Source of the DNA: Blasia pusilla
Lineage: Eukaryota
Assembly: GCA_050084515.1 (NCBI GenBank)
Contig: CM114271.1
Coordinates: 8,122,001 to 8,186,000 of the forward strand
Reading direction: 5' to 3'
DNA: 64,000 nt
Both the position numbers and the translations under genes were made by a program. Each line of letters opens with the position of its first letter. Positions within the stretch are counted from its first letter, which is position 1. Below are positions 29,999 through 62,239 of the stretch, piece by piece. The notes below the pieces were generated by a model, which made no database searches, had not been told where the DNA came from, and worked only from the letters and a program-made list of their open reading frames with translations.

Positions 29999-32900
29999 CT
30001 AGTCTATGATTTCTTCGGCCTCGTCATCTACAAATTTATTCCTAACTCTCCTCGGTGACAGTACAAAAGGAATGTCCTGGGATACAAGTGGCTCCTCTGG
30101 CCGATTGTAGATGGGGATCGAAAATGTTGGCGAATTCGAGAGCCTTGGCCCCCCCCTAGGTACGCCATAACGGTCCCATGTAACCTGATTTGAGTCCCAC
30201 CGCCTTCCTTGGCAGTATACCTTGTACGCTCTGCAATGTGACACCCATCCAGTATCAATATGTGCTCCGTCCTTGGTAAGACCATTATGGCAATCGCACA
30301 AGTAGTAGGAATCCAACACGTCTGAGAGAAGAAAAGAAGCCTACGGCTGCCTTTACGAGTTGAGGGGAAGCTGCCAAGGGAAGAAGCCAGCCAGATTGCC
30401 CCTTAAGTTGGACCAATAGGGAAAGAGTCTGATCAGGCAACCTGTCGGAATCCGACAGGTTGCGTGGAAGTGGTAAAAAGGTAGTATCGTCAAAAAGTGA
30501 AAAGTTGCAAGCAGGAGAAATCCGACGGGTTGCAAAATAGAAGTCCGCGGAGTACATAGACGATCACATTCGAAAAGACATAAAAAATGTTCAGCAAAAT
30601 TTTACAACCACCACCATCGTTCGAAAAAATCATCGCCTTTATATCATCCGAAAAAAGCTCGGAACTGTACATTTGATCTATTCTATGAAATCTTTTGCCT
30701 CATCATCAAATAACTCCCTACTCCAAACGCTGCAGTCAAGCTGGGTCCTTGAGTTCTTTGAACTCACTCGTTATCGTCCGAGAGCTCTTGCAATATTACT
30801 TTTGGCCTTGCCCTCCCGATTTTCGGAATCGTTGGATGTGACGATGGAGTCACTACCAATGGTGGGTCTGGAACCGGAGCTCTCGGCTTCGGTGGAGAGT
30901 TGTATGCCCCAACGAGCCTTTTGTATTCTACCTTTGCCTCCTTGCAAATATCAAACAATTCTTGCCTTCCCTCGAGGCAGAGAATGTTCCTGCCACTCTG
31001 CCATGCGCCTTTGATACTTGCCACTGAAAGTCCCACTAAGTCGAACACCAAGTCACCCGGCCTTGAGCAGAGCTCGATGAGCGTTTGCATCAGGGCTGGT
31101 GACTTTTTTCTTCCTCCCATAAGTGGGGTACCGTCTTGCATGTAAATTCCGAGGGGGGGATTGTACAAACTATCTAAGCTGTACCCATCTGAGCATGGAT
31201 CCACATGATCCCAGATCTTGAACACCTGGAAATTGTGCTCGGGCCGAACGAAGTAGTAAACGTAGGAGTGGTCCATCTGTAAAGAAGCACGTTGGAAACA
31301 ATGTCAGCAACCTGGCATAATGTGTAACACGTCATCAAAGAAGTCGGCTTGACCCTAAAGAAATTTTTTCCATTACTAACTTTGGAGCAACCTGTCGGAG
31401 TCCGACGGGTTGTTTTTTCCCTGACCAACCCGTCGGAAGGCGACGGGTTGCTGGCCTAAAGCAGCCCATGCTCGGCTGCGAGCAACCCGTCGCTTTCCGA
31501 CAGGTTCCAACTTTCCGGAAACACAAGGAAAAACCAAAAGCAACTGCAACCCGTCGGGTTCTGTCGGAGTCCGACGGGTTGCTTTGGGCCAAAAACTTAC
31601 TAAACTTGTGGCCAGTCAAACAACTCGTCGGAGTCCGACGAGTTGCTTTCGGAAAAAAATAACCTAACCCATTCATCAATCGAGCAATTCGTCGGAGTCC
31701 GACGAGTTGCGTTTGGCCAAAAGCATCCCAACAACAGTGCCGACCCAAACAACTTGTTGGAGTCCGACGGTTTGCAGCAAGAAGATACTTACGTGTTCAT
31801 GGCATGCATTGCCATCTCCACCGTCGCCATGTGATGAGGGAATGGATGAAGGACGACTGCCTTCACGCAAAAATGTGCCTCCAAGGAGTTGGGCCGCTGC
31901 TCTGCAAACTTTGTCCATGCCATGAACCTGTGATTTCCATCCCAGATGAAGACATGCAAATTCCTCATCCAACTGAATTCCGTGCCCTCTACTTGCCTTC
32001 TGAAATCCTGGTCTCTCATCCTCCAGAATGTGTCGAGCTTTTCCAAGTCCTCCTCCATAACCAGGGCTTGGGTTCCATGCTCATCGTAAGGCTGAACATA
32101 GAAGGGAGGGAAGTTGTCGACGTAGGATGCTGTCGACGCTGATTGTTTTAGCTTCGCGATATCCTCGTCGGACTGAATTTCGCTGACATATTCCATTGTC
32201 CGCAATCGACAGAGTGGAATTCTTGGGGCGTTGTGGCCCTCCATCAGTGCCATCTGCTTTACCACCTGTCAGAACCGGGACAAGATCAATAAGCTACACT
32301 GAATTGCCAATGAATTGCAAGATGGGCCTTCATATAATTCAAAAAACCCTGATCCTCTCTTACCCGCCCGAAAATTGGGTCGATTTCTTGACCAACCAAC
32401 TTGTCCGAGATAGCAGCTGGCAAATCGACTGGGAACTCGTTAATCCGATAGAGGTCGATGTCTTCGGCCGGGCTTGGAGACGAGAATGACCGCTCTCCGG
32501 CTTCTTCGGCTTCTTCGGCAATGTCCGCCATCTCCACGGTGGCGGTCGTCATGACCTCATTGTCCGTGATTTGAACTTCTCGCGTTTCCGCTATGTTGAT
32601 TGTGTCCCCAGACTTCATGGGGGACATTTCCAGCATCTCAATACTTTTGGTTGGACGGGAAGGGTTGTCGTCAATGGCTATCGCTTTTTCCCTCCTCGCT
32701 TTAGCCAATTCTGCTCTCCTCACCGACGCGTCTAGACGCTTCTTTTCTCTCTTTTCGTCGGCGATCCTTTTCTTCAAGGCCTGCGACGTCTCAGCCTCTG
32801 CGTTCTATCTATCAAGCGTCTCGCAAGAAGCTTGTGGTTGTGCATCTCTGCTTCCCTTTCCCACTCCTCGATTTCCTGCTGCCTAATTTCATTTGCCGAA

Positions 32901-33067
32901 CGATGCTTTGGAGATGTTGACGCAGGAGTCCTAATGGACTTCGGAGTGAAGCTCCCAGACTTAGTTGCTTGAACTTTTTTCCTCGTCATTTTTTCCGGAA
33001 TTGCTTGATCAAACGCCTTGCTGATGTCGAGATGAGTTGCCTTGATGGGAAGCTCGAATTGTCTCAT
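29999..33067 (-). pseudogene. ParB-MTase accessory gene, copy C, central exon(s) deleted
   Basis: Keeps IWDGNHRFMAW (31789-32265) and LIELCSRPGDLVFDL (30764-31276); the DLPSG exon is missing, with two palindrome introns fused at about 31560. Confidence 0.7.
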
Positions 33068-33319
33068 GATCGTTCAGGCAAACCGTCTCGCTCTCGTTCG
33101 GTTGTACCGTCTCGCTCTTGTTCCCTCGTATCGACTCGCAATGACTCGCCGTGTGAAACGCCCCTTGCTATCTGATCAGCTGCTGCGTAGGAGAGAGAGG
33201 AATTGAGATCGCGAAATGAGAAACCGGAAATGAGCGATTTCTTTCCTATTTATACTTTTCTAGCCGTTGGGTCCCGTCGTCCTTCCGACGGCGACGTGCC
33301 GGCCGTTACGGAAGTCCGG

Positions 33320-34090
33320 ACGTGAAAAATGGCAACCCGTCGGAGTCCGACAAGTTGCGTGCCTCCGCCTTCCTGGGAAGATAACGCAAGGTGCGCGAGC
33401 AACCCGTCGGAGACCGACGGGTTGAGCGCCTCCGCCGTTTTCGGACAAGAACGCGAGGTACCCGCGCAACCCGTCGGAGACCGACAGGTTGCGTGCCTTC
33501 GCCGTCTTCGGACAAGAACGGGGCGTACCCGCGCAACCCGTCGGAGACCGACATGTTGCGCGCCTCCGCCATCTTCGGAAAAGAACGGGATGTACCCGTG
33601 CAATCCGTCGGAGACCGTTGGGTTGCACGCTTCCCTCGTCAAGGGTTAACAACACGGGCTTCCCGTGCAACTTGTCGGAGTCCGACAGGTTGCACGCTTC
33701 CTTCATGTAAGAAAAGCAAGGCGAGGCCCTTGCGCAACCTGTTGGAGGGAGACGGGTTGCACGCCTCGCCGTCTTTGGGCAAGAAGGTGCGGCACCCGCG
33801 GAGCTCGTCAGAAACACACGTTTTGCACGGTTCCTTCATGTAAGTGTTACACCGTGAGATAATTGGGCAACCCGTCTGATGCCGACGGGTTGCAAGCCTC
33901 TGGCATCTTCGGGCAAGAAGGAGCGGTATCTGAGCAACTCATCGGAGAGCGACGGGTTGCCACCTTCGATCATGTTTGCGTTTGAAGGTAAGGCAGAAGC
34001 GTGCAACCCGTCCGAAGCCGACGGGTTGCAGGCTTTGCTTAGCTTGGGTTAATTGTTGAGTTACCTGGACTCCGACGGGTTCCAACAATC
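33320..34090. repeat. Palindrome array in the bidirectional promoter (copy C)
   Basis: gcaacccgtcggagaccgacgggttg units. Confidence 0.85.
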
Positions 34091-34281
34091 CTGCTTCCCA
34101 AATCCGGTAACACATTGCAATAGAATTGGATCCATTGTGTTAGACAATTTCACCTACCAAACTTCATCTTGTCAGTAAAAATCTGTCATGAGTATCTGTT
34201 TTCCTATTCACTATAAATTAAAAATTCTCATTCTCATTCTCTTTCTCATTCTCACCCTCCTCCGGTACGAAATTTCTGGGA

Positions 34282-37200
34282 ATGGATAATTATGTGAAGC
34301 TCACTTGTGGCAGTCATCTGACGGCCCTTCCTCAATCAGAAATCGTTCGACCGCAAGCTCGTGAGTCTTTCATAGCAGTGGATGAAAATTTTCTCTCTGT
34401 TCGATTTCTTCTCCAAATTGGAATCATCTTTGTATCCAAAGATATTAGGGTGGGTGCTACGGAAGACATAATAGGTGAGACATTCCAGCCAGTGTGACTC
34501 TGAGACCATAAAGTATGGAATCTCCTACCTCTAGCAAATGGTCAATACAGAGTTTACGGCCTGCCCCTGAATTCGTCTGTTTCCCAAGTAGATGGTCAAG
34601 AATTTCCTAGTGCACCGAGCTCTACCTTTGCAACTCCTAGCTCAGTAGATCCAGCTTTGACTCCAACTTCACACGCTCGTAACAATGTTGTTCTTCTTGA
34701 AGAGATTCCGGATGTTATCAACCTCAGTGGATCTGTCGGACACCAACCGGGCCCTCTGTCCGCCTACTCGTTCCTCTTGTGAGTATCAGGCAATAGTTTG
34801 CTTTCGTCTCTGGCCTTGAAAATGTTCAAGCACATTCTTGTCGACGAGATGCCGTCCACGTATGATGGTAATTGCATTTTTGAGTTGCCTTTACTTGCTG
34901 CTCCTGCTCAAAAGAAAGATGGAGGACACCTGAAGGGTATGGACAGAAAGTCTGATTGTCATCGATGGTGCACGCTTCAACAGACTAGTGCTTCAATTCC
35001 AGATGGTCCTTGGATTGTCTCCCACCGCCAATGCGTGGGAGCCTTGGAGTGTAGAAGTCCAGCATGCCCGTATCAAGAGTGCAACGGGCGAGTCAATACG
35101 TCGCAATTCCCCCCCAAGAATGCAGAAACTCCATACGAGGTCGGTGCCACCATACCGCCGGGAGGCCATCGATGTCCTCATTGTCAGGCATCGCCCTTCT
35201 TATCGCCCTTCTTCGTTGGAGCATGTCCTGCATACATATTTGTCGTTGTCCACGACTTGGGCTCCACGTCAGAGTACACAAGGCTGGCAGTTCATGTTGG
35301 CTCCTACACTCATCCTGTGACCGATGCAATTGAGAGACACATCAAGGAGGATGTGGCGAAGAAAGTTGCCGAGGTCTAGAGAAACTCTCCGGGTTCAAAG
35401 CCCGGGGTGATCAAGCTCACAACGGCATCACAAATTTGTGAACAATTGCTTGGAATCCCTGGATAGGGCGAGATCACGGTGGCTGAGGAGAAACAACTCT
35501 GGGAAAATCTCGCATTTCTCGCTGATCCTGAATGCTTCCGGAATTTGTTGGTCAAATACGAGTTCTGGATGGAAAGACGGCCGAAATGGATGCCATCGCC
35601 AGAATCAAGGCCAACTCCATATTTCCATTCATTCAGAGATGGCAGTTCATGGGCCAAGGAGGCGAGGGATCCAGGGCCTATGTCTTCAAAATGTCAACCA
35701 CAGGTCCGTCGAGTGGCCTCGATCTTATAGATCAAATGAGGGAAGGGGAAGATCTTTCGGCGGTGGGTAAGCTTTGATATTTGCTCAGAGTCTTTGAACG
35801 GATGGTTGACGATGGGTGCTCACGTTTATGACCATGTGGAGAAGGGACTCAAAACTATATTTGTGTGTGAAGTAAAGGCAAAAGACGTTGGCAGTTTGAA
35901 GATGTGTTGGTTACTCTTATTGGAGGTGGTGAAGGAAAACAAAAGGCCACCTCCGGAAATTTATGGGTTCATGACGGACAATGCACAACCTGGGTGGATT
36001 GCTATCCGAGAAGTGTTCTGGAGTGAAGATGTTCAACCGGATAGGGAAAGGTCGGATGCTTTCCATTGGCAACAGTCTGTGACCCGATACACCAAATCTT
36101 GCATCAAGGAGAATAAGAGTACAGAGCATGTCACTCTACTCCAACGCTGCAAGGACAACAAAACCTTGAAGCAGGCCATGGAATGTCAGGAAGAACTTCA
36201 TGGGTGGTGGAGGAAGCAGGCGATTGAGGGGAAGTACAAAGAGTTGTGCTCTTGGTTGAGTTGGTGGACTGTACGCATGAGACAATGGGGAAACTTCATG
36301 CGGCAGGTGAGTTCACTATTTTGTCTTGTCAAGCTCACGCTGAGAATTGTTTGAAAAGTTGCAGCTCAAGTTGAGAATATTGGATTCTCAACATCCACTC
36401 CTCTGAGCACCATTGATTTGATCGGCCCCCTTGTATGAGGAGAAGCCTAGATCAATGGTTCCGACTTAGACGTCGAAGGAGTCATAGTAATATGACGTAG
36501 GTGGTTTACGGAGTAGCGTTACTAGGTTTATCTAACCCTATATTGCATCAGGGTGCAGGGCACCCTGATGCAATATAGGGTTAGATAAACCTAGTAAAAT
36601 TTTTCTATTAATAGAAACGAAGAAAAATAGGTAAAAACCCTAGTTTTCCCGAGTAGTCAAATAGTCGGGAGCCGCAGTGGTAGCACATTCTCGTATGTCG
36701 AGTTATCTCCCAGTTCAGGTTCCATAGAAGCTCTTCTGTGAGCGCACGGACGGACTAGGCCACTTTGTATCTCTAAGTTTTTGTAAAGATTTTAGTGATT
36801 TAGTCACTTTTTGTTTTCTCACAGAGAAGCGTGGGAACTATAGGGATTTCAAACCGAAGAAACCAAGCAAGTTGTCGGATGTGACGGGTTGCCTGATTGT
36901 GCAACCCGACAAAAACCGACGGGTTGCCCGAGTGTGCAACCCGATGGAAACCGACGGGTTGCATCCAGAATTTTGGTGCAACCCGAGTGTGCAACCTGAC
37001 GGAAACCGACGGGTCGCAGATTCGTTCATGGGATGCCTCGGCCTTGCAACCTGTCTGGTTCCGACAGGTAGCTTATGTCTTTGACTACTGAGTTATTTTC
37101 GTTCCCTTCTAACATTGCCGTCGTTGCAGGGATTGAACGTTCATGAAAATGCCCTCTGCCCCAACACAAGTGGAGCAGAAAGTGTTCATTCCTCTTGGAG

Positions 37201-38628
37201 GTCGTCACAAGCATGCAAACGAATTTCACTTGTGGAGGCATGCCAACAAGACTAGGCAAGAGCAATGCTACAGTCTGCAGCATCCCATATCTTCCTCACA
37301 AAAGGCATAACAAAAGGAAGGGGGCCATCGATCTACGAGCTCTATGTTAGGGCGGCTGTGAGATCTGGTGATGAAAAAATGTATGTGGAAGCCTTCAACC
37401 GGTGCGTAGCTGGAACTCCCCTTGAGCAAGACGTACACATTGGTGGGGATATTTGTGGGTAGGTTTCAAGACGTCCCATACAAATGGTGGTAGAGCAGTC
37501 CGAGCGAGACTCGTGGAGACCAGATAAGTATCTTGACTTCAGGCAGATGAAGAGGCAGCATCAAGGAACGAATCCGATGATTGATTTGGATGAGGAAATT
37601 ACGCCGCCCAAGTATTCGGGGACCCCGGACCCGTCCCAAATCCGTGATGGAGTTACTTCTCCAAAATCAGTGAATGTTTTATTTCAAAAGCGCTCTGTTA
37701 TTGGAAGTTTGCAACATCCTGTCACTGGGGTGGTTCAACAATATGGGATTCCGGTAATGGAGGTGGATTGCAACCTAAAACCGTGGCATATATCTCGGAG
37801 CAACCCAGGAGGTGGACCCACTTGCAGGGCAGGATCTGATGGCATTAGGAGAGCATGCGGCACTTTCCTAAATAAGAACTCTACAAGGACTGGACGACCA
37901 CTGCCTAGGTTTTGGGGACTCAAAACCTTTGATCGTTTCACAAGGACCGGGGATCAATTGAAGTACTTCTTCTGCCCAAATGAATCTTGCGCTTTCCGGA
38001 AGTCTTATTCGGCTGCCATTGGAGCTCAGGAATACCCCACGATTTGGCCCATTGTCGCAGTACGAACTCCATCGAAGACGAAGTGGACAATCTTACAAGT
38101 CTTTGGTTTGGACTCGAGCGGAGGAAGTTCAAAGTATGTTCAAAGATTCATGAGACCTTCGCATTTTGTATTCAACCCAAGATTGATGTCAACATGTACC
38201 CGGAGAAGGTGGATGATCTCAATCCACTATTTTTGTTTGAGTCTAGAAATGGGGTGAAGAGAAACATAATGTGTAGGCCAACGGTGGAGAGAGCAAAGCG
38301 AATTGCATCAGCTCGGGAGGCAAAAATGGAGATCATCGCCACGAAAGATGTCTTGAGTGGCAATGGAATAGGAAGGATGTACTGGGTCAGGAACAACACT
38401 GTAAATTCAAATGTCACAGGGGTGTATGTGGTGCACATATGTTGCTTTCCCACATGTTCATGTGATGACTTTGTCCAAAGAGAGACAAGTGGCAAAAGGT
38501 ATTTCCCTTGTAAGCACATGTACTATGTGTTGCTGGTAGTTTTAAGAGAGTCGGAGGTAGGAGTAGGAATCCACCAACCAATTCTGTCCCTCAAAGAAGT
38601 GCGAAGTATTTTAAACAAACCACTTTGA
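34282..38628 (+). pseudogene. GCM-fold / MULE DDE / SWIM transposase (copy C), intron 36307-37129
   Basis: MDNYVKLTCG start; QCVGALECRSPAC..CPHC..HVGSYTHP; FMTDNA; DAFHWQQ; NTSGAESVH; SWIM CSCDDFVQRETSGKRYFPCKH; nonsense changes. Confidence 0.85.
36378..36823. mobile_element. Solo LTR with 5-bp TSD GAGAA, inserted in the transposase intron
   Basis: TATTGG (TG>TA)...CTCACA; gagaa at 36373-36377 and 36824-36828; absent from copy A at the same site. Confidence 0.92.
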
Positions 38629-39031
38629 GGATGCAAAATGAGGTTTTAGATTGTACTTTTATTTTTCCTGAACCTTGAGTTTGAGCTTGAACTCTATTCA
38701 GCCCGGGGCAAATGATAGATTTTTTCCAGACCTTGGATGGAAAAAGTGATTGGTTCCACACTTATGATTCCATTGATTTTTCAGTTTTGTATATTTTGTG
38801 CAATTTGCAACCGGTCGAACTGAGATGGGTTGCCAAAATATGGAAGAGAAAAAAAAATGTGGGAGTGCTTAATAACTGAACAAAAAAGTGCAAAAAAATT
38901 CACAAAAAAAGTTTCCTCTCTTCAAAAAAAAGTATCTATTTCGGTTGAGGGTAGTTTCCTCTCTCCTCTCTTCCTCTCTCCTCTCTCCTCTCTCCTCTCT
39001 TCCTCTCTTCCTCTCCTCTTATCGCACCTCC

Positions 39032-39700
39032 CTTGGGGACCATGTGGGACAAATTTCAGCTTAAGATGACAAAGTTAGACAAGATGAAAAATGAAAAAAC
39101 CTTATTTTGGTAGAAGGTCTGATGGTTCGGGTCCAAAAAGAAGTTAGAAAATTTTGAGCTTTTGCTCACAACTTCAATTTTCCTAAAACTTGGCAAGAGT
39201 GCTAGGGTCACCTTGAGGACCATGTTGGCCAAATTTCAGCTTAAGATGAAAAATTTGGACAAGATGAAAAAGGAAAAAACCTTATTTTGAGATCTGATGG
39301 TTCGGGTCCAAAAAGGAGTTAGTAATTTTTGAGCTTTTTCTCACAACTCCATTTTGATTGAAACTTGGTAAGAGTGTTATATGCACCTTGAGGACCACGT
39401 GGGCTAAATTTCAGCTCAAGATGACAAAGTTGAACAAGATGAAAAATGGAAAAAACCTTATTTTGATAGTAGGTTTGATGGTTCGGGTCCAAAATGGACT
39501 TGCGGCTTTTTGAGCTTGTGGTCCCAACTCCATTTTACTTTAAACTTGGCAAGAGTGCTAGATGTACCTTGGAGACCACGTAGGCTAAATTTTAGCTCAA
39601 GATGGAAATGTTGGACAAGATATCCGGTTAAAGATCTTTTTTTTCATTCAAGGTTATCTACTCCAGGTCCAAAAGGTCATTTTAAACTTAATTTGGGATG
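39032..39700. repeat. ~180-bp tandem repeat, right part
   Basis: cttgg(c/t)aag recurs at 39189, 39364 and 39545; in phase with the left part. Confidence 0.85.
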
Positions 39701-40519: not shown

Positions 40520-43500
40520 CATTCTCTCCAAAATGACCCAACTCCTTGTGGGCATGATGCACCAAACGTGCTCTCTGCAAAGAATGAGGCACTACACGCA
40601 CTCTACCATCCTCCCACACTCGCAACACATGTGTGCCCTCCCACTAGAACGGTCTGGCTTGCTGTAGGATCCGATCCCGCTGTCTAGCACCCATTGTGCT
40701 GGCGACGCTCCTAGTACGTATGTACTCCAAGACCACTCCATCGTTGTGAATGTCTCGGCCACCTATCGTCTCCTCACCGGCCTCTGGATCTAAGGACTCT
40801 CCATCAGATCTCGCCATCAAAGTCTCAGCAATCGGGCTCTCCATAGCCAACAAGCCCAAATAGGTTGACGCATGCTATCCTTGCACCAACTCCTCATCAC
40901 TCTTACCATGCCAATATGCTCTAGTCGTATCTTGCTGACTCAAGCATGGGTTACAGCTCAAACCATCTGCATCCTGGTTGAGCGTCCCAAGTCTATGCAC
41001 CACTTGGAAGTCATACTCCTGCAATAAAAGAGCCCACCTCGCAAGCTTCCTTGTAAGCTTGTTGGACTCCATCAACCACTTAAGTGGTTGATAATCAATA
41101 ATGATGGTAAAGGGATTGCCGAATAGATAACATCTAAAATGTGCGACAACTCACACTGCAGCCAAGCACTCACCCTCATACGAGCTATACTTTGCCTCTC
41201 CAGCATTGTTCGAGCGCTAGCGTAAGCCACCACGAACTCTCTACCATCATCATCATGTTGGGTGAGCACGGCTCCGAGCCCCAACATGCTCCAATCGATA
41301 TGCACCTAGAAAGGATGCCCCCTGATTGGTCTCCTCAATATGGGTACGAACGTCAATCTGTCCTTGAGCATCAGAAATGCTCTCTCTTGCTCATCCTCCT
41401 AGTGCCACTCTTGATCCACCTTGGTCATCAAGATTAGCGGCTTCGCAATCAAACTGAAATCCTTGATATAACGTCGATAGAAGTTTGCCAATCCCATGAA
41501 TGCACAAACTTGACTCACATCTGTAGGGCGTGGAATGCGTGAAATAGCCTCTACGTTTGTCTCTTGCACACCAAGGCCTCCTAGGTATATCGTATGATCC
41601 AAGAACTCAATTTGGCCATAGAAGAACTTGCACTTGCCTGGATGTAGCTTCAGCCCATGTAACTGCAATCGTCAAAATACCTCCTCTAGATGTCGCTCAT
41701 GCTCCTCAACCGTGGCGCCAAAGACAACGATATCCTTAATATAACAACTAGCAAAATCTAGACCTGCCAAGATCCTATCTATGACCCTCTCAAACTCAGC
41801 CGGGGCATTCTTTAACCCGAATGGTAAGAACCGCCACTTGTACAAACAATCCTTCCCGTGAGGATCGATGCCCCAAAATATCCTCTTCTGCCTGTCCTCC
41901 AATGTGATAGGCAGCCGATGGTATGTGGCTCGCAAATCCAATGAACTAAAGACCTTTGCATGCCCAATCGCATCAAAGATATCCTCAGGGATGGGCATGG
42001 CATACCTATTGGACTTCGTCTACCGATTGATAGGTCGGTAATCTCCATACATCCGCCTATCTGTCTAGTTGCCATGCACATCCTTTTTGGCAAGCATGAC
42101 TCCAACCAAGTCTTGGCTCCTACTCTGAATTAGAGCCCTCTCCATGTCAATGTACTTGTATGGTCGTCGAAAGATCGGCGTGTCACTTGAAAACTCAATG
42201 CGGATCCTTGGACCCTTCAGCGTACCCAAATCATGCATACTAATGCAAAACAACTCCTATAACTCCTAAGGAATTGGTGTATCCGGCGCCGCTCTCCTCC
42301 TATCAACTTAGGGCCCATATCTAGCTCCCAAGTCTCCATCGTGACTATGGTAGGACTCTCCGGCGCGAGTGTCAGTGGTTGCTATGGTGCAACCCTGTCT
42401 CGGAAAATAGAACTCTCATCTCCACATACAGTACCCGGAACCACACTCAATGTTGTGGCTATCATCTCCAGGCGTACCTGCAAAACATCCCAAGAAGTCC
42501 AAGGGTGTCTCTCCCGATCACCCCTGGTGTGTTGATCTTCTCGGGTCTCGCCCCCAACTACTGCCTCAACCGTCTCGGTAGGCATGGTGCTCACCAACGC
42601 AACAACTGTGATCTGTCGCATCCTCAAACGATGCTGCTCAGGTACTCCTCAACTAAAAATCCATGTCAAGTAGTTCACGTCTATTGCCTGACCCAAGACA
42701 TGACGTCGTGATGCCTCCGATAGTGATGGTATTGCCATCACTCCTGTGGGGAATCCCATTGCTCGCTCTCGCTGATCAAGATTGGGCTCCACCAACCTCT
42801 ATACTTGGTCATCCTAAACCAAGCCAGGTCTGGCTTCCTTGAATGCATAGGAAGCGGGAAAACTCACCAATGTGGGAAAGGCTGCCCGTGGCCTGCCAAT
42901 CTTGTTGACCATAGTGAACAGAGGTCGATCATCTAGCCTCACTACGTGTGATCGACGGCCTAGATCCAATATAGAATCCACCAACAAATGCGCTCCACTC
43001 TCACATATGCCCTCCGTAACACCTTGTGTGGTACCAAGTTGGTCCACCAAAGATACGGGCGATGTGCTTGTGAACCCACACTCGCCGCATCTAACAACAT
43101 TGTGAGGCTGATCAATGCGCACACCTAATGTGCACTCGTCATCACGCAGGATCTCGAATTGCCCAAAATTGGCACATTCTCCAAAATGTATGTTGGAGAA
43201 CGAGGTTGATACTCACGTAAATGTCGCAAGATCCGCATCATCTCCCAAAACAACCTAGATTGAGTGTCAGCTAACCCGCTACCTCGTCTAGCACTCGATT
43301 GGCCTTGATACGGCCAACCAGCAATGACCAAGTCGATGGTCCCTACCAGCTCCAAGTCCTGCGCCCCCAACAATGAATTGTCCCTCGATAGGGAACTCGG
43401 GTAACCCTGAATGGCGGATGCAGAAAACAAGTCGAGGAAATGGAGGCGTAACAGCGCCACATGGTGAAGTGAAGCGGGCCTCGCAACATCATCAATCTCC

Positions 43501-45060
43501 ACATATAGGTATTGTTGCACGCGCACTCCAGCGTGCAAAACAGCAGCTAACCTAGTGCTGATCCCTCCAAAGAGATCCAACACCCAAATACCCTTCTCTG
43601 GGATGCACCACACAATCGGGGTGGTGTCCAAAGGGGTCATAGCAGCACTCGTGCCTACATGGGATTCCTGTGATCCGTCACACTCTAGTGCAAACGTCTC
43701 GCTCCATGCGGTTTGCACATGCTCAGTGGCTAAGCGTCAAAGCTCCTCAATTGAGCCCCAAAGCGGCAGCTCTCCTCCACGGACTGATGTGGCTACCATG
43801 ACACTACTCTGCATAGAAATGTCAGGAATGGGATTATCCTCTCCATGTCCCTCAATCAAATCATTAGGCCAAGTGATGGCACTGCTAAATGCTACTAAGG
43901 TCGCCATCTCTCTTGGCCGTCGCTCGCTCACTGCACCTGTGAATCGAATGGGTAATGAGCTAAGGCACCCATCACCTCACTGCCATCCTGTAGGACGGTG
44001 ATTCCTCCTAGTAATCCAGGGAAAACCCCATCTGGTATAACACTGCTCCACCAACCAAGATGTCGTAGGACTCTACATCAATCATTATCACCTTGGCTCG
44101 CACCACGGACTCATATGTAGGATGTCCCGGGCGAATCCTCACCACGACCTCTTGTTAGGTGATATATTTTGTGGAACTCGCTCCACCCAAGGATGTCTGT
44201 ATCCGTAATGGACAAAGCTCCACATCGGCTCTCGTCAAGCCCAATCCTCTGAATGACGCTTTCCCCAACATTAGGGGTTGCGCTCTTGAATCCAACAAGA
44301 CACGCTGCGGACTAAAAGCTCTGCCTCATGGACTCACCAACTGGAAGACCTCTCCCCAGTTATCTAGCAAAACAACACCAGGAGAAGCCATGGCATGCTC
44401 TATTGCGGGTCTAGCGGGCATCTCCGCCATCCAAGCAGCTAGAGCCTGCCATGAATCTGACGTGGATGGCCCAAGCATCCGCTCCAAGGGTAGGTCCATC
44501 ACCTCCTCTGCAATCACCTCTGAACGTGATGCAGGAACTCCAACTCCATGCTCACATAGCGTAGCGGCGAGCCAAAAAACCTTGGCGGGCGCACCTCCCA
44601 ACGTCATAACATCAGAAGCAGAAAATAAAGGAGCGCGATACATAACGGTGGCCGCCCCCAACAACATGCTCGACATATGCCCCTCCTGAGCATCAACAAT
44701 AGAAGTTTTCGGATTCACTTCTCCCATCGCCCTCCGTGCTTGCACACCAACAACATCACCAACTCTCTAGGAACTCTGATCAGGCTCCATCGATGGGAGC
44801 CTCATCGCTTCGGACAACGTGAAAGACTGAGGAAGCCTAGTCTATTTCCTGGCTTCCCCTCACTGTGGATCCAACTCTGCGGCTGGTCCACACGTCACAA
44901 CTTCTGTGGCCTCCATCTGGGCAACCCCTCACATCCAACCAGGATCCTCCATATCTTTGGTTGCTCCATATGATGTCGATGCCATGGATGTGGCATCGAG
45001 TAACCTCAATGCCATAGCGAAAAATCTGCTCTTGTAGCTACTGTATCTTAGCAGCCATCC
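40520..45060 (-). mobile_element. Decayed Ty3/Gypsy internal region ordered (gag)-PR-DNMT-RT-RNaseH-(INT start)
   Basis: RVLLDSRAQPL (protease, about 44275-44310); C5-MTase; RT (PFGLKNAPAEF, CYIKDIVVF); RNase H (DWSMLGLGAVLTQ, KLARWALLLQEYDF); HAHKELGHFG; no LTRs seen. Confidence 0.85.
42660..43600 (-). pseudogene. C5-cytosine DNA methyltransferase domain embedded in the retrotransposon polyprotein
   Basis: Motif I VLDLFGGI, II VEID, IV IDLVIAGWP(Y)Q, VI YILENV, IX ERAMGFP, X RRHVLGQAID; motif VIII not found (deletion or frameshift near 43125). Confidence 0.88.
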
Positions 45061-45164
45061 CTATCACCTACCATCATTGGTTGATGAAGAAATTGCAATG
45101 ACGGTGGCGGCAAAACCAAAGTACGTGGTGGCGGTGCAAGTTAGAGAATCAACGATGGTCGTGG

Positions 45165-46486
45165 GTATACTTTGTAGTAACCTTCTCAGCTGTTCGGTAT
45201 GCCCACAATGCCGCGGCGATTTTCATGTCCCAATCATAGGAATACGTTACCGTCAATCGATTCAATATCCGGCACATCAAGCCGTTAGATTTTTCCGTCA
45301 ACCCGTTGGCTTTAGGGTTGTAGGGCGTGGTTTTCCGATGCTTAATGAGAAAGTGGGAAGTGAGAGACTCAATAGTGTTGTTTAAGAAGTGAGTGCCACG
45401 ATCACTTACTAATTCCAATGGGCAGCCATACCGAGTGATAATCATCTCGTATAAAAATTTGGCCACTGCTTCACTATCATCTTTTCGCGTGGCCACCGCC
45501 TCAACCATCTTAGTACAATAGTCGATGGCTATGAGAATATACTTCCGCCGTGTTTGGCGAGTAGCGGGGGAGATAGGGCCCACAAAGTCAATACCCCATT
45601 TTTCAAAAGGAGCTAGGGACATGGTGGGTACCAAAGGCCACCGCGAGGTTGTCTTTGGTCGACCTGCTCTTTGACTGGCATCACAACTCTGGATAAAGTT
45701 ACCTACATCTTTGTACATAGTTGGCCACCAATAACGTGCCGCCAAGATTTTCTTAACGGTATTTTTTACCGCATAGTGTCCACTAGAATCAGTCGTATGC
45801 ATGGCTCTAATGACGTGGGGGATTTCTTCTGCTTCCAAGCATCGTCGATACTCTTCATCTGCACCTAATTTGAATAGGATCCCCTCACATATCTCATATG
45901 GTCCTATCTTATGTAAGAAAACTGCTCGTTCCTCCGGTGTTATAGGGGCAAGAAGTTGCAGAGTAATTAAAAAATGTAAAATATCCTCATAAAAAGATTG
46001 GCACAACCGATCCTCCGTGATCTGGAACAGGTCTTCGTCGGGAAAGGTATCATCGACGGATTGTGTGAGGTCCGCGTTCGTCATCCTCAACCGGGAAAGA
46101 AAATCTGCATTGGTATGAACCTTGTCGGCACGGGTAACGACATTGAATGTGAATTCTTGGAGCAGCAAGATCCATCGCGCAATACGACCTGACAAGTTTG
46201 CCTTCACCATTAATGGTCTGAGTGCGAAATGATCGACAAATTCGTACCCTAATAAATAGTGTCGGAACTTTTTACACAAGAAGACCATGCCTAGCAACTC
46301 TCGTTCGATAGTTGTATATTTTTGTTCCGCTGAAGATAGTTTCTGGCCGGCGTAGTTAACCGGAAAGTCATGTTTGTTTTCATCCAGTTGGCTGAGCACC
46401 ATTCCAATGGCAAACGAGGATGTGTCCACATATACGTGGAAGGGTTTGGTCCAATCAGGGGACCTTAGTACAGGAGCCATTTGCAA
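45165..46486 (-). pseudogene. RNase H + integrase
   Basis: VYVDTSSFAIGMVL, YTTIERELLG, GRIARWILLLQEF, GHY..CDASQ, KWGIDFVGP, LVSDRGTHF, NGLTE. Confidence 0.92.
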
Positions 46487-47500
46487 TGCCCTCTTTAAAG
46501 CGTCAAATGCCGCTTGGCAAGGTGGAGTCCACTCCCATTCGGTAGCTTTTTAAAGTAATGCAGTAAGAGCTCCTGCTTTTACCGCATAATCTCTAATAAA
46601 CCGTCGATAGTATCCGACGTGTCCCAAGAATCCTCTCAATTCTCGGAGATTTGTGGGTGGTTCCAATGCGACGATAATATCCACCTTGGCCTTGTCGACT
46701 TCAATTCCTTGAGCCGACACTCTGTGTCCCAACAAAATCCCTTGTTTCATAGCAATATACGATTTTTCCGGATGAAGGGACAAATGCACTTCGCGACAAC
46801 AAGCGAGGGTTAATTCTAATTTTCCAAGTGTTCGGCCTCTGTATTGAAGATACAAAAATCGTCCAAGAAAATTTCAACAAACTTCCGCAGATACTCTTGG
46901 AAGATGGAGATCATCATTCGTTGGAAGGTAGCTGGGGCATTGCATAACCCAAAGGGCATCACGCGATACGCAAAAGTTCCCTTGTCCGTGGTGAAAGTGG
47001 TGAGGGGGCGATCTTTTTCCCGTATGGATACCTGGTTATAACCCGAGTATCCATCCAAAAAAGTATAACGTTCGTGGCCGGAAACTTTATCCAAAATACT
47101 ATCAGTGAAAGGTAGGGGGTGATGGTCCTTTAAGGTGGCCGCATTCAATTTCCGATAATCCTGGCACACTCTAATTTTTCACGTTTGTTTTTTGGGTACA
47201 ATCACAATGGGAGACACCCACTCGCTACTTAACACCGGATAAATTATTCCTGCCCCGAGACGCTGGTCGATCTCGTCCTTGACTAACAATGAGTACTTCG
47301 GGTTGAGGCGATACTGCCTCATTCGTATCGGGACCACACCTTCTTTTAGGTCAATTCGGTGTTCACCATACCATGCTGGAATACCTGTCATTTCATCCAT
47401 GGAGTATGCAAACACATCCAAATACTCAAACAATAATCTTTTATACTTCATGAGTTCAGTGGGAGACAAATCCGCCGAGAGGCGTAGAGACTTCTGACCT
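46487..47500 (-). pseudogene. Reverse transcriptase (frameshifted)
   Basis: SEWVSPIVIVPKK, CQDYRKLN, LDGYSGYNQV, MPFGLCNAPATFQR, FLDD, LRGFLGHVGYYRRFI. Confidence 0.93.
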
Positions 47501-47636
47501 GTAATTAAGACCTGTATGTAGTCCTTTTCTTGAACCATACTTTTTGTAAACTGGAATGTGCTATGACCCATCTTCTCTTCTTCTCGGGTCGACATCTGTT
47601 TGCTAGGTATCGACTCCTTGTCTATTTCGTAACATT

Positions 47637-48344
47637 CTAAATAATACACATTGGACGAGGTTGCTCTTGATCTGACGTATAGCCTTCGTCGGTCGGTGGC
47701 GTTTCTCCTTGGGGTGGTCGTGATTTCCACGACAACTTGATGAGCCACTTGGAGACCTGGTCCGGAGCTTGGAATGTGAAACGTCGCCTTTTCCAATCCG
47801 TAGTCACTCTCGCACCATACAGCCACGGTCTTCCAATGAGCAAAGGATAGCCAGTGGTTGTTAGGGTTTGCAAGACTAAGTAGTCCAACAGAAATAGCAC
47901 CCCCCCAAGCATGGTCGGGATCTGAGTGAGCTGTCCTAGGGGTTGCTTCCAAGACTTATCCGCAAACCGCAGATACTTCTCGGTGGGCTCGTACTCCGTA
48001 TACCCTAGTGCCCGAGCTGTCTGTTCTGTCATAATGTTAATTCCGCTTCCTGCGTCAATGGGAACCTTCTTAATGGCGTGTCCCTCAATCTCCACCTCTA
48101 CCTCTGGTGCTCCCAAGTCTTCCACTTGGATACGGAACAGCTCCACTACTGGTAGATGCTTTGCAGACTTCTTGGGTTTTTTACGGCTTATCTTCCATTG
48201 TTGCAAAATTTTGCCGTACACCGGGTTATCCATTAATAATTGCAGCAGGGTTATACTGGCCGGGGTTGACGCCATGTCCCTGAGTAAGTCGTAGGCTTCT
48301 AAGACCAGCGGTGACGTCGCGATGGCTTGCACTGCCGGAGCCAT
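47637..48344 (-). pseudogene. Retropepsin aspartic protease region
   Basis: VPIDAGSGINIM and LLIGRPWL motifs. Confidence 0.88.
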
Positions 48345-48769
48345 TCCGGTTCTCGTCTTCTATGTGGTCTGCCTCCCTTTTGGTCCCTGGTCGTGATGCA
48401 CTTGAGCCCGAACCTGGTCTTTGATATCCTGATGGAAGTACTTAGGTGACTTCGATCGAAGGCCGGGTCAACATCGCCTTTTAAGATGGCCTTCCCGGCA
48501 CGGAAGGCGCCGAAAATTTTCGTCTTGGGGTCCTTAGCTTCGCGCAAAGACGAAGCACCTTTCCTTGCCTTGGGGGTCCCCGCGGTCTGACTCTTGGACC
48601 TCGTGGTGACAGCCAGAACGGTTTCTTAGAACTCCTTGGGCCAGTCCGATGATTCTTCGGCGGCCGCTCTGTTTGAGTCTTCCTCCTTGATAGTGACTCG
48701 CCTTGGCCTGGGGGACCCTAACTCTTCCACTCGGACGAGTTGCACATTTATGTCATTCTTGGACTCTAG

Positions 48770-50088
48770 TTAGGCTGTTGGGGTGTTGACATATTTTACC
48801 AACAACCGCGGAACCTTGGGCTCCGGGCATTCCACTGCAGTGTGCCCGCCCTTCTTGCAATTTCCGCACAAGGGATTGAGTCCTACTAGCCGCTTTGGAT
48901 TTGGGCAATTATTAGCCCAATGGTCAACTGCCCCGCAATTATAACAACAATTCCTTTTTATGGGTGGCGTGAAGGCCGCCACGCCCATAATCTGTCTTAG
49001 AGGTCTGTGTTCCCCGTATTCCGGAGGCACATATCGGGTGATCCAACTTTGTCCGGGATTTGGTGGTGGCACACCTTGGATTGCATAGCACCCTTCCCAC
49101 TGTTCGGGTTCATACCACCCTTCTTCTATAGTGGGATCTTCCTGGATCCAACGTAAATCCCTCTGAGTATGGCATTCCTGGGAAGTATGCCCTTGGGTTC
49201 CGCAAGTACTGCACCAGAAGTTGGGCCTCATCAGACCTGGTCGTCTTTTGGGGTCCTTCTGGGCCGCCAGATGTACCTTCAATTCTGCCGTTTGCTTACT
49301 TAGCTCTTCCATGGCCGACTTTCCGGCCTTCCTTGCTGTCCCCCTCACTAGACTTTCCGACTGTTGGGGAAGGTGCTTTGTGGGTCAGGTTTTCCTTCGA
49401 TGCTTGGGAGAGTGGTGGCGCCTACTTTTTCTTTTCCGTTTAGATTTTAAATCTTTTTTAGAGTCCGAGGACTCCGAAGTATCCCCCATAGAGGACTCCG
49501 TGTCTGTGGAAGACGCTTCGTCCTCCAACGAAGCACTAGTTTGCGACGAACCTCGTCGTTGGTGACGCCGTCTTCGTGTTTTACGGGACTTCTCTGAGTC
49601 TTCGTACGCCTCTACGGAGGCTATGACTGCTTCCAAGGAATCTCGTTGGCCCTCGCCCGGCAAGATCGGTCCATTTCTTTGGGCCGATCGACACGAACCA
49701 ATCTACCAATTGCGAGGTAGTAGTGTGTTCCAGTTTATTCACCAGGCTTCGAAACCTTTGTATGTATTCCCGAAGATTTTCCTTCTTTTTACGTTTCAAG
49801 TTGCGAAGCTTTGTAAGAAGCCTGTCCTCAAACTCCAGGTCGTGGAACTCATGTAGGAAGGACTCCAATACCCTTTTCCATGTTTCCGTGACGTCCGCTC
49901 TGAGACCCTCGTACCACTGGCTTGCTCGCTTCTTGAGCAGGCAAGGAAAGACTCGCAACAAATCCTCCTCTGAGCCTTCCCCATTTGCCTTGGCTACATG
50001 GGTAAATTCAAGCACAAAGTTGTCCACTCATCTCGCCGTCCCCCGGCAAAGGTGGGGTACCTTAGCAGCATCTTCTTAGTATTGGCCA
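48770..50088 (-). pseudogene. Gag with three CCHC zinc knuckles (frameshifted)
   Basis: Retrotrans-gag-like RASQWY...ENLREYIQRF; CSTCGTQGHTSQEC, CYNCGAVDHWANNC, CGNCKKGGHTAVEC. Confidence 0.88.
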
Positions 50089-50840
50089 TAGGGAATTCTC
50101 TGCTACTGGGTCCCGGGCTTGATGCTTGGGAGGGAGGAGGTAGCGGCTTCACTCTAGTTGATTTGGTCAGCTCCGCGTCCCCCGACTCCCCAAAGGGGTC
50201 CCAGGTTGACTCTTCGTCCGACTGCAAACTGGAAGGGGACGTAGTGGAGAGTTTGTTCTTGTCTCTCTTCTTGCTCTTGGGCTTCGTGCGAAGACCAAGA
50301 CCAGGAGACAGCCTAGGCGGTCTCCAAGCCGGGTGATCTTCTTGTTGCTTACTGCGTCGATCGGCTCGCTGATCTCTCGAAGAGAGCCGGGAGCCTTCCA
50401 TGAGTCCCTTCTGGGATTCGGGAGCTTGCTTCCGCACCCACGGTCGCAACAAGGTAGGGGTCCATGGAGGGAAATTAAATGTTTCTACTTCCTAAGCCTA
50501 GAGGAGTGTGCCAGGTGCTCTTAATCTTCCTGCCAGGTTTTCCTCCCATAAACAGAAGTATCGGGTCATCACCAAGTACAACTGACGTTCATGGGCGGAG
50601 CACCATTCGGCGACTGGTTTATTGACAAGACTAATTAATTGTTCTATCTTTTCTAGCACCAATGCACCAATGCAGCAAATCGGTTGTTATCTTCCTTCAT
50701 CCATTGTCTGAGGGGGATAGCTAGAGATAGCAGATGGTCTTCAGTAAGAACTAGCTGGTTGGGTCTTCTAGGAGACGAGGCTTCTTTCCCCGCTCCCGGA
50801 TTCCCCATGTGTCTCTCTCCCTTTTCAGCAAAGAATATGA

Positions 50841-61895: not shown

Positions 61896-62239
61896 CTATG
61901 TCCACGACAAATCCCTTGATCAGTCGCCTTGCTGATGTCGAGATGGGAGCTCGTCTCGCCTTGATGGTTAGCTCGAATCGTCCCGATATCGTTCGGTCGA
62001 ACCGTCTCGCTCTCGTTCCCTCCTATCGACTCGCGATGTGTCGCCGCGTGAAGTGCCCCTTCGTATCTGATCAGCTGCTGCGCGGGAGAGTGAGGAGTGA
62101 GGAATGAAGATCACGAAATGAGAAACCGGAAATGAGCGATTTCTGCCCTATTTATACTTTTCTAGCCGTTGGGCTGACCGTTGGGTCCCGTCGTCCTTTT
62201 GACGGCGACGTGCCGGATGTTACGGAAGTCCGAATGTGA

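What the first reader, a model, noticed from the sequence alone, without database searches (positions are those of the whole stretch)
42660..43600. Ty3/Gypsy retrotransposon with a C5-DNA methyltransferase between protease and RT
Seen: C5-MTase motifs I, II, IV, VI, IX and X lie on the same strand and in line between the protease (DSRA, from DSGA) and RT. The catalytic PC reads PY, one G>A change away. Established: DNMT-carrying retrotransposons have been reported in Symbiodinium dinoflagellates and charophyte algae. Inference: if the host is a land plant, this extends that phenomenon; the enzyme might methylate the element's own cDNA. This copy is dead.
Basis: partly seen in the sequence, partly recalled or inferred. 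Interest (0 to 1): 0.75.

Follow-up and report, generated by a model that had tools for sequence, protein, structure and literature searches.

The report
Dead gypsy retrotransposon carrying a DNA methyltransferase
This is a broken, truncated copy of a jumping gene whose family carries its own DNA-methylating enzyme, and intact-looking relatives sit unremarked in the genomes of liverworts and peat mosses.

Summary
On the minus strand, about 45018-40527, lies a fragment of a Ty3/gypsy retrotransposon. Its order is protease, Dnmt3-type C5 DNA methyltransferase, reverse transcriptase, RNase H, start of integrase.

The copy is dead:
- 21 in-frame stops and at least 4 frame changes.
- Protease DSGA reads DSRA, methyltransferase PCQ reads PYQ, RT YIDD reads YIKD.
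- Both ends are cut off and no LTRs are left.

The methyltransferase is not a chance insertion:
- The fragment is collinear with gene models from Marchantia polymorpha, Calypogeia fissa and Sphagnum, and with uninterrupted polyproteins (CCHC-PR-DNMT-RT-RH-INT-PHD) from Closterium and unnamed contigs.
- The methyltransferase and RT trees put it in the same bryophyte clade.
- The two domains have diverged in step (68.5% against 67.7% between Marchantia and Calypogeia).

A family profile matches DNMT3A/3C/3B far better than DRM2, bacterial enzymes or DNMT2.

The host is probably a liverwort; this is inferred from transposon relatives only.

The kind is known from Klebsormidium (de Mendoza 2018). 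My literature searches found no description of liverwort or moss members, although public gene models exist. I rate it a new member of a known kind, of moderate interest. Methylation of the element's own cDNA remains an inference.

The parts
40527..45018 (-). Whole surviving fragment of the DNMT-bearing Ty3/gypsy element ('G1'): C-terminal part of gag/pre-protease region, PR, DNMT, RT, RNase H, first residues of integrase. Cut off at both ends, no LTRs.
   Evidence: tblastn collinearity with Marchantia, Calypogeia, Sphagnum, Closterium and unnamed polyproteins. 21 in-frame stops across six collinear segments. Self-comparison shows no LTR pair.
43987..45018 (-). Region upstream of the DNMT, with the aspartic protease. 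The active-site motif reads DSRA (LLDSRAQP, 44298-44275) where relatives read DSGA. It holds 7 in-frame stops.
   Evidence: Alignment with 13 relatives. tblastn to P0011 residues 99-197, which overlap that protein's Pfam protease hit. No direct Pfam hit in the window.
43620..44018 (-). Conserved linker of unknown function between PR and DNMT (GWQxGDG...PVRF...WP.DLLEG...PLW), shared with the bryophyte relatives and P0006.
   Evidence: Alignment. No Pfam family in the window or in P0290 and P0285.
42643..43619 (-). Dnmt3-type C5 cytosine methyltransferase domain, not rearranged. Motifs: I 43580-43557, IV 43322-43296 (PYQ in place of PCQ), VI 43190-43170, VIII 43076-43035, IX 42882-42841, X 42705-42673. 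Broken by stops at 43127-5, 42816-4, 42801-799 and 42651-49 and by a frame change near 42990.
   Evidence: Pfam PF00145 E 9.5e-8. tblastn. Alignment. Coordinates. PDB: DNMT3A is the best hit.
42251..42642 (-). Linker between DNMT and RT, conserved with the Marchantia, Calypogeia and Sphagnum models. There is a frame change near 42245.
   Evidence: tblastn segments 42987-42484 and 42336-42241. Alignment.
41216..42250 (-). Reverse transcriptase, 57% identical to Marchantia MARPO_0091s0058. The catalytic motif reads YIKD (41746-41720) where 6 of the 8 relatives scanned show YIDD. It holds 5 in-frame stops.
   Evidence: Pfam PF00078 E 8.5e-14. tblastn. Motif check. RT tree.
40647..41213 (-). RNase H domain.
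   Evidence: Pfam PF17917 E 3.3e-12 and PF17919. tblastn to P0298 residues 1032-1190.
40527..40646 (-). First residues of the integrase zinc-binding (HHCC) region, where homology stops. The element is truncated at its 3' end and AT-rich unrelated DNA follows.
   Evidence: tblastn to P0082 up to residue 1913, inside its Integrase_H2C2 hit at 1895-1949. Translation.
45019..45163 (.). Junction interval. The 5'-truncated G1 abuts the 3'-truncated integrase of a second, unrelated gypsy element (G2). Residues 1 to about 345 of the relatives (gag) have no counterpart anywhere in the window.
   Evidence: G2 homology ends at 45164, which is residue 1315 of 1454 of Riccia P0162. G1 homology starts at 45018.

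Best explanation
The locus is a decayed, doubly truncated copy of a Ty3/gypsy LTR retrotransposon lineage. Its Gag-Pol polyprotein carries a Dnmt3-type C5 cytosine methyltransferase between protease and reverse transcriptase. Full-length relatives read CCHC-PR-DNMT-RT-RNaseH-INT-PHD finger.

Shown here:
- the domain order;
- the Dnmt3-like character of the domain;
- its conservation and co-divergence with RT across liverwort, moss, Closterium and unnamed relatives;
- the inactivation of this copy.

Inferred for intact family members: the methyltransferase is made as part of Pol inside the particle where reverse transcription occurs. It methylates the element's newly made cDNA, or DNA at the integration site, de novo. 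The new copy therefore arrives already carrying the host's methylation mark. The C-terminal PHD finger of the integrase would read histone tails to steer integration.

This copy does none of this; it is a fossil. The host is most likely a liverwort, inferred from transposon relatives only.
For: Identity and order
- Pfam hits for DNMT, RT and RNase H lie on one strand.
- The fragment is collinear with P0082 residues 965-1913 and with 20+ other proteins.
- Uninterrupted polyproteins have CCHC/PR-DNMT-RT-RH-INT(-PHD): P0082, P0364, P0369, P0385 and Closterium NIES-53 P0383.

The DNMT is an integral part, not an insertion
- Four Marchantia models (P0298, P0299, P0305, P0329) and Sphagnum fallax P0307 run from DNMT into RT.
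- In the careful DNMT tree of 35 rows, G1 sits in a clade of 8 with Calypogeia, Sphagnum and 4 Marchantia rows (95/92).
- In the RT tree of 117 rows, G1 sits in a clade of 4 with Marchantia P0298 and Calypogeia P0326 (99).
- DNMT and RT-RH identities track each other: Marchantia against Calypogeia 68.5 vs 67.7%, against Closterium 41.3 vs 41.9%, against P0082 40.8 vs 42.9%, against Scenedesmus 37.1 vs 38.2%.
- No repeat bounds the domain.

Constraint on catalysis in relatives
- The PCQ Cys and the ENV Glu are invariant in 50 of 50 aligned proteins.

Dnmt3 type
- The family profile against PDB gives DNMT3A 3e-28, DNMT3C 6e-26, DNMT3B 6e-25, tobacco DRM 6e-16, DRM2 6e-13, M.HaeIII/HhaI about 4e-9 and DNMT2 1e-6.
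- The motif order is not rearranged.

This copy is dead
- 21 stops and at least 4 frame changes; DSRA, PYQ and YIKD at the three active sites.

Host
- 18 of 18 named hits among 29 are bryophyte proteins.
- G2's RT is sister to a Riccia sorocarpa protein (97).

Mechanism precedent
- A DIRS-borne Dnmt3 from Symbiodinium methylated CG de novo in yeast, and the authors proposed cDNA self-methylation (PMC5890265, passages).
Against: - No LTRs, target-site duplication, primer-binding site or gag N-terminus survive, so the copy cannot be shown to be a complete LTR element.
- The protease is not recognised by Pfam here or in the 2 close relatives scanned at E<=1.
- The host is not identified. The best named relatives are only 53-63% identical, or 71% over the RT columns kept in the tree.
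- No Klebsormidium DNMT-bearing sequence was among my hits, so the relation to the published KnitGypsy-Dnmt3 is untested. Only Klebsormidium RTs without a DNMT in the model were seen.
- No named host DNMT3 or DRM sequences were in the trees, which are unrooted. 'Dnmt3-type' therefore rests on PDB ranking alone.
- No activity data exist for this family. The Klebsormidium element's DNMT gave no methylation in yeast, reported as inconclusive.
- The lower CpG o/e in G1 (0.65 against 0.85 in G2) fits host methylation of an old copy as well as it fits self-methylation.
Confidence: 0.85

Rival explanations
1. Chance chimera: a host DNMT3-like gene fragment, or another mobile element carrying it, landed inside an ordinary gypsy element in this one copy.
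For: The region is a nest of broken transposons with abrupt junctions. This copy has no intact ORF linking the domains.
Against: - The same PR-linker-DNMT-linker-RT order, including both linkers, recurs in Marchantia, Calypogeia, Sphagnum, Closterium and unnamed contigs, some as single uninterrupted ORFs.
- The DNMT and RT trees agree.
- No duplication or inverted repeat flanks the domain.
Confidence: 0.02
2. The host is not a land plant but a streptophyte alga or another green organism absent from the protein sets. The window would then not extend the phenomenon to land plants.
For: - No host gene, tRNA or Rfam RNA is in the window.
- The closest named relatives are only 53-63% identical.
- In the quick 99-row tree G1 branched outside the other 13 members of the bryophyte clade.
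Against: - 18 of 18 named hits to the DNMT ORF are bryophyte proteins. Closterium relatives are only 32-38% identical.
- In the careful tree G1 lies within the bryophyte clade (95/92).
- Two independent transposon families, G1 and G2, both have liverwort nearest named relatives.
- Whatever this host is, the family exists in land plants.
Confidence: 0.1
3. Same element, different job. In intact members the DNMT does not methylate the element's own cDNA. It might instead methylate host DNA near insertions or genome-wide, act on RNA, or restrain the element's own copy number to the benefit of host and element.
For: - The 2018 authors list these alternatives and could not detect DNA methylation by the Klebsormidium gypsy DNMT in yeast.
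- Elements without a DNMT also transpose in the same genomes.
- The PHD finger suggests chromatin-directed action after entry into the nucleus.
Against: - All DNA-methyltransferase motifs, including the target-recognition side (VIII-X), are conserved, with invariant catalytic Cys and Glu.
- Nothing here separates cDNA from chromosomal DNA as the substrate.
Confidence: 0.3

Closest known systems
KnitGypsy-Dnmt3 of Klebsormidium nitens (de Mendoza et al. 2018, Nat Commun 9:1341, PMC5890265)
   Same: A Dnmt3-type, non-rearranged C5-MTase sits inside the Pol polyprotein of a Gypsy LTR retrotransposon in a streptophyte, and the key catalytic residues are conserved in intact copies (passages read). 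Klebsormidium RTs fall in the same 95-row RT clade as all DNMT-bearing elements in my tree.
   Different: The host here is probably a liverwort. The position of the DNMT in the Klebsormidium polyprotein is not stated in the text I read, because the figure is not held. No Klebsormidium DNMT sequence was available to me, so common descent is untested. The window copy is dead and truncated.
Bryophyte gene models carrying the same module (e.g. Marchantia polymorpha Mp_4g09160, Mp_8g17980, MARPO_0091s0058; Calypogeia fissa; Sphagnum fallax and S. troendelagicum)
   Same: They share the gag-PR-linker-DNMT-linker-RT(-RH) order. Identity to the window is 42-59% over the DNMT ORF and 57% over RT, and they fall in the same DNMT and RT clades.
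   Different: They are annotated only as hypothetical proteins, CCHC-type domain proteins or DNA (cytosine-5-)-methyltransferase. 6 of the 7 such models shown in the alignment keep PCQ. The terminal branches of the Marchantia rows are very short, which suggests recent copies.
SymbioDIRS-Dnmt3 and SymbioLINE-Dnmt of Symbiodinium (same paper)
   Same: A retrotransposon-borne C5-MTase. The DIRS one is Dnmt3-type and methylates CG de novo in yeast.
   Different: These are different retrotransposon classes (DIRS with a tyrosine recombinase, and LINE), the host is a dinoflagellate, and the acquisition was independent according to the authors.
Animal DNMT3A/3B/3C and plant DRM2
   Same: The catalytic fold family and motif set are shared. 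DNMT3A is the best solved match (3e-28) and DRM2 a weaker one (6e-13).
   Different: There is no PWWP/ADD or UBA domain. The enzyme is embedded in a retroelement polyprotein, and it is not circularly permuted as DRM is.
Chromoviruses (Ty3/gypsy with an integrase C-terminal chromodomain) and the 'EpiLTR' elements of a 2026 preprint (doi 10.64898/2026.05.21.726589)
   Same: A chromatin-reader module sits at the integrase C-terminus, and epigenetic enzymes are borne by LTR elements (passages read).
   Different: Full-length relatives here end in a PHD finger, not a chromodomain. The EpiLTR DNMT is reported as sister to DNMT4 and placed at the 3' end of pol, together with a Dam-type adenine MTase.

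Membership tests
Ty3/gypsy LTR retrotransposon | Reverse transcriptase and RNase H of the Ty3/gypsy type | tested here: met
   PF00078 E 8.5e-14 and PF17917 E 3.3e-12. The close relative P0082 matches the Ty3 Gag-Pol structure 7q5b at 2.3e-91.
Ty3/gypsy LTR retrotransposon | Domain order PR-RT-RH-INT on one strand | tested here: met
   PR 44298-44275, RT 42250-41216, RH 41213-40647, INT start 40646-40527, with the DNMT inserted between PR and RT.
Ty3/gypsy LTR retrotransposon | Flanking long terminal repeats with a target-site duplication | tested here: not met
   No direct repeat pair flanks 40527-45018. Both ends are truncated. This is a statement about this copy, not about the family.
Ty3/gypsy LTR retrotransposon | gag with a CCHC zinc knuckle | tested here: not met
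   Residues 1 to about 345 of relatives have no counterpart in the window. Relatives P0082, P0383 and P0385 have zf-CCHC.
C5 cytosine DNA methyltransferase, Dnmt3 type | Motifs I, IV, VI, VIII, IX, X in canonical (not permuted) order | tested here: met
   Alignment and coordinates. PF00145 E 9.5e-8.
C5 cytosine DNA methyltransferase, Dnmt3 type | Catalytic Cys in motif IV (PCQ) and an open reading frame | tested here: not met
   The window reads PYQ, and the domain has 4 stops and a frame change. The Cys is invariant in 50 of 50 aligned relatives. The window copy is therefore a pseudogene of the family.
C5 cytosine DNA methyltransferase, Dnmt3 type | Closer to DNMT3 than to DNMT1, DNMT2, DRM or bacterial enzymes | tested here: inconclusive
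   Profile against PDB: DNMT3A 3e-28, then DRM 6e-16, M.HaeIII 4e-9 and DNMT2 1e-6, with DNMT1 not among the best 60.
C5 cytosine DNA methyltransferase, Dnmt3 type | Methyl transfer to DNA | not testable with these tools
   This needs an enzyme assay on an intact relative.
DRM (domains-rearranged methyltransferase) | Circularly permuted motif order (VI-X before I-IV) | tested here: not met
   The motif order runs I to X, so it is not a DRM.
Gypsy-Dnmt3 retrotransposons (KnitGypsy-Dnmt3) | [quoted passage not shown] | tested here: met
   Collinearity of the window copy, plus uninterrupted ORFs in relatives P0082, P0364, P0369, P0383 and P0385.
Gypsy-Dnmt3 retrotransposons (KnitGypsy-Dnmt3) | Common descent with the Klebsormidium elements | not tested
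   No Klebsormidium DNMT-bearing protein was among the hits. Only the Klebsormidium RT-RH-INT(-PHD) models P0349, P0372 and P0381 were, and they lie in the same broad RT clade.

The most novel reading that the evidence does not exclude
The dead copy is a fossil of an old Ty3/gypsy clade of the green lineage that carries a Dnmt3-type methyltransferase and, in full-length members, a PHD-finger integrase.

The clade comes in two layouts. PR-DNMT-RT is found in Closterium, liverworts and Sphagnum. RT-RH-DNMT-INT-PHD is found in Scenedesmus, Pleodorina and Volvox. All of these share one RT clade.

Its land-plant members appear undescribed. They are multi-copy and keep every catalytic residue in the model liverwort Marchantia polymorpha. 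They may therefore be active, transposon-encoded de novo methyltransferases in a genetically tractable land plant.
Probability: 0.4. Interest if true: 0.6.

Novelty: new member of a known kind. Interest (0 to 1): 0.4.

Why it matters
Cytosine methylation is the host's main weapon against transposons, so a transposon that carries its own de novo methyltransferase is a paradox. So far it has been studied only in a dinoflagellate and one charophyte alga, neither of them easy to manipulate.

This window's copy is itself inert. Following it showed that the same module sits in liverwort and peat-moss genomes, including Marchantia polymorpha, where transformation, knock-outs and methylome profiling are routine. 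That would make two questions testable in a land plant: whether such elements methylate their own cDNA, and what they gain from it.

The module's conservation in step with RT argues that it does something for the element.

Tried and rejected
There is no fold comparison; I used a profile search of PDB sequences instead.
- **Pfam on the protease:** no hit in the window or in the 2 close relatives scanned at E<=1.
- **Host identification:** no tRNA, no Rfam family, and no host gene among 108 ORFs of 110 aa or more, which gave only transposon domains. No eukaryotic genome collection was on hand, so intact sister copies in the host could not be sought.
- **Gag of G1 upstream of the neighbouring element G2:** no tblastn match. 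G2 is therefore not nested inside G1.
- **Insertion signatures around the DNMT:** only 12-19 nt chance-level repeats.
- **Plus-strand ORFs over the locus:** no family reached its Pfam cut-off.
  - Searches found no paper naming a liverwort or moss DNMT-bearing retrotransposon.
  - One search was badly designed and uninformative.
  - The supplement of PMC12344493 could not be read.
  - The one held supplement of PMC5890265 lists Physcomitrella and Selaginella but neither Marchantia nor Sphagnum.
  - Subscription papers, for example the Marchantia genome paper and reviews of Marchantia methylation, were not searchable, so an existing mention cannot be excluded.


Full report
**What is in the sequence**

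On the minus strand, the ORF 43736-43128 (203 aa) carries FGG (motif I), PYQ (motif IV position) and ENV (motif VI). It matches Pfam PF00145 at E 9.5e-8.

- A three-frame translation, tblastn with relatives and an alignment show that the domain continues through an in-frame stop into motif VIII (GSQAHRPYLWWTNL).
- After a frame change near 42990 it continues into motifs IX and X.
- Upstream, the protease reads LLDSRAQP where 6 of the 7 closest (bryophyte-clade) relatives that cover the site read LLDSGAQP.
- Downstream come RT (PF00078, E 8.5e-14) and RNase H (PF17917, E 3.3e-12), then the first residues of the integrase zinc-binding region, where homology stops at about 40527.
- The plus strand holds no recognisable domain.

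**State of the copy**

- Across the six collinear segments from 45018 to 40527 there are 21 in-frame stops and at least four frame changes.
- Three catalytic motifs are altered: PR DSGA to DSRA, DNMT PCQ to PYQ, and RT YIDD to YIKD (6 of the 8 relatives scanned show YIDD).
- Residues 1 to about 345 of relatives (gag) have no counterpart, and most of the integrase is missing.
- At the 5' side the fragment abuts, within 45019-45163, the truncated integrase of a second gypsy element, G2.
- No LTR pair exists.
- CpG o/e is 0.65 in this fragment against 0.85 in G2 and 0.81 in the window. TG+CA o/e is 1.29 against 1.00 and 1.08. This fits long exposure to methylation-driven deamination but does not say who methylated it.

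**Is the DNMT an integral part or an accident?**

*Breadth of relatives.* A full HMMER scan of 1.84 billion representatives with the 203-aa ORF gave 835 hits at E<=1e-3, and many of the best 150 are proteins of 1000-3200 aa. Pfam scans of these and a custom HMM give the following for the 104 stored proteins with a near-complete domain (not de-duplicated):

| Layout | Proteins |
|---|---|
| DNMT before RT | 23 |
| DNMT after RT-RNase H | 35 |
| No RT in the model | 46 |

*Uninterrupted polyproteins.* These read CCHC and/or PR, then DNMT-RT-RH-INT, two of them ending in a PHD finger: P0082, P0364, P0369, P0385 and Closterium sp. NIES-53 P0383.

*Collinearity.* The window fragment is collinear with them and, at higher identity, with bryophyte gene models. 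RT is 57% identical to Marchantia MARPO_0091s0058 and the DNMT 47-59%.

*Trees.*
- In a careful IQ-TREE of 35 DNMT domains, chosen by me from the 99, the window sits in a clade of 8 with Calypogeia, Sphagnum fallax, four Marchantia rows and one unnamed row (95/92). All 11 RT-before-DNMT rows form one side of a branch (97/93).
- In a quick tree of 117 RT domains it sits in a clade of 4 with Marchantia P0298 and Calypogeia P0326 (99). All DNMT-bearing elements share one 95-row clade (100). G2 lies in the other clade next to Riccia. For that tree I dropped six near-duplicates, and RT hits under 33% identity except seven G2-like rows.

*Co-divergence.* DNMT and RT-RH have diverged in step:

| Marchantia compared with | DNMT identity (%) | RT-RH identity (%) |
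|---|---|---|
| Calypogeia | 68.5 | 67.7 |
| Closterium | 41.3 | 41.9 |
| P0082 | 40.8 | 42.9 |
| Scenedesmus | 37.1 | 38.2 |

*Catalytic residues and flanks.* The catalytic Cys and the ENV Glu are invariant in 50 of 50 aligned proteins. No duplication or inverted repeat brackets the domain.

Together these results reject a chance chimera and indicate purifying selection on the methyltransferase.

**What kind of methyltransferase**

- The window ORF alone finds DNMT3A as its best solved relative (E 1e-4).
- A profile of 50 family members gives DNMT3A 3e-28, DNMT3C 6e-26, DNMT3B 6e-25, tobacco DRM 6e-16, Arabidopsis DRM2 6e-13, M.HaeIII/HhaI about 4e-9 and DNMT2 1e-6.
- The motif order is not permuted, so it is not a DRM.
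- I could not build a phylogeny with named reference families or a fold. 'Dnmt3-type' therefore rests on this ranking.

**Host**

- The window holds only transposons, no tRNA and no Rfam family.
- Of 29 proteins found with the DNMT ORF among longer proteins, 18 carry names, and all 18 are from bryophytes: 14 Marchantia polymorpha, 2 Calypogeia fissa, 1 Sphagnum troendelagicum and 1 S. fallax.
- G2's best named relatives are Riccia sorocarpa (63%), then Marchantia (45%).
- A liverwort is the most likely host, but this is an inference from transposon kinship.

**How it probably works**

Shown: the architecture, the conservation and the Dnmt3 likeness.

Inferred: in intact members the enzyme is translated within Pol and is present where cDNA is made. 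It methylates that cDNA or the integration site de novo. The PHD finger on the integrase reads histone tails.

The precedent is de Mendoza et al. 2018 (PMC5890265; passages read). A DIRS-borne Dnmt3 methylated CG in yeast and the authors proposed cDNA self-methylation. The Klebsormidium gypsy DNMT showed no activity in that assay, which they call inconclusive. Alternative roles (host DNA, RNA, self-restraint) cannot be excluded.

**Comparison with what is known, and novelty**

- Gypsy elements carrying Dnmt3 are known from Klebsormidium nitens.
- Later texts speak of 'streptophytes' (PMC12344493, passages; preprint 10.64898/2026.05.21.726589, passages).
- The one held supplementary file of the 2018 paper lists Physcomitrella and Selaginella but does not mention Marchantia or Sphagnum.
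- Nine searches found no paper describing such elements in liverworts or mosses, nor any paper citing five of the Marchantia gene identifiers. Subscription literature and unreadable supplements may hold a mention.
- The gene models themselves are public.

I therefore class this as a new member of a known kind. The window copy is an ordinary dead fossil. The lead worth keeping is the family's presence, with intact catalytic residues and very short terminal branches, in Marchantia polymorpha.

Noticed in passing
3215-14521 (+), 25024-15591 (-), 28908-39024 (+), 55078-64000 (+): Four copies of a mobile element of about 11.3 kb. They share a sharp common end (GGGGGCTGGTATT...), have GA-rich terminal inverted repeats, and have different flanks in each copy. 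One ORF has a weak SWIM zinc-finger hit (E 0.013, below cut-off), and another has a weak FAR1/ZSWIM lead from the protein atlas. It is probably a large Mutator-like DNA transposon.
   Followed up: partly
22732-23286 (+) and 30767-31303 (-), inside two copies of the large element: An ORF resembles the C-terminal SAM-binding part of N6/N4 DNA methyltransferases: PF01555 at E 9.6e-4 and 6.3e-3, both below cut-off; best PDB match M.RsrI at E 0.029; all nearest atlas clusters are PF01555 at score 0.92. The FxGxG motif is degenerate. A second, unrelated methyltransferase-like remnant on a mobile element in the same window is curious. I recall that liverworts own a bacterial-type N4-cytosine methyltransferase, which is cited in PMC12344493.
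   Followed up: partly
45164-50491 (-): A second Ty3/gypsy element (G2) with gag, CCHC, PR, RT, RNase H and integrase, and no DNMT. It has long ORFs (466 aa) but several frame changes, and it is cut off at residue 1315 of 1454 of its Riccia relative. Its RT is sister to a Riccia sorocarpa protein.
   Followed up: partly
2066-3214 (-): An integrase fragment of a third gypsy element (46% identical to Riccia P0162 residues 1070-1454). It is cut exactly where copy A of the large element begins, so that element inserted into it.
   Followed up: no
25749-27349 (+): A hAT-type transposase remnant: DUF659 at E 9.6e-25 and the hAT dimerisation domain at E 9.7e-8.
   Followed up: no
28400-28907 and 39031-39674; 33265-33962 and 62244-62854: A satellite of about 178 bp is split by copy C of the large element, which sits inside the array. 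A 67-bp tandem repeat lies inside the large element itself.
   Followed up: no
public protein sets, not the window (P0039, P0060, P0071 Scenedesmus, P0411 Pleodorina, P0414 Volvox; P0056 Closterium; P0033, P0109): DNMT-bearing LTR elements are much more widespread than the two published cases. A second layout, RT-RH-DNMT-INT-PHD, occurs in chlorophytes. Closterium has a Copia-type polyprotein with a DNMT. Other proteins combine a C5-DNMT with a Dam-type adenine methyltransferase. The two gypsy layouts share one RT clade.
   Followed up: partly
40527-45018: CpG is depleted and TG+CA enriched in the DNMT-bearing fragment compared with the neighbouring gypsy element and the window as a whole: CpG o/e 0.65 against 0.85 and 0.81; TG+CA o/e 1.29 against 1.00 and 1.08.
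   Followed up: no
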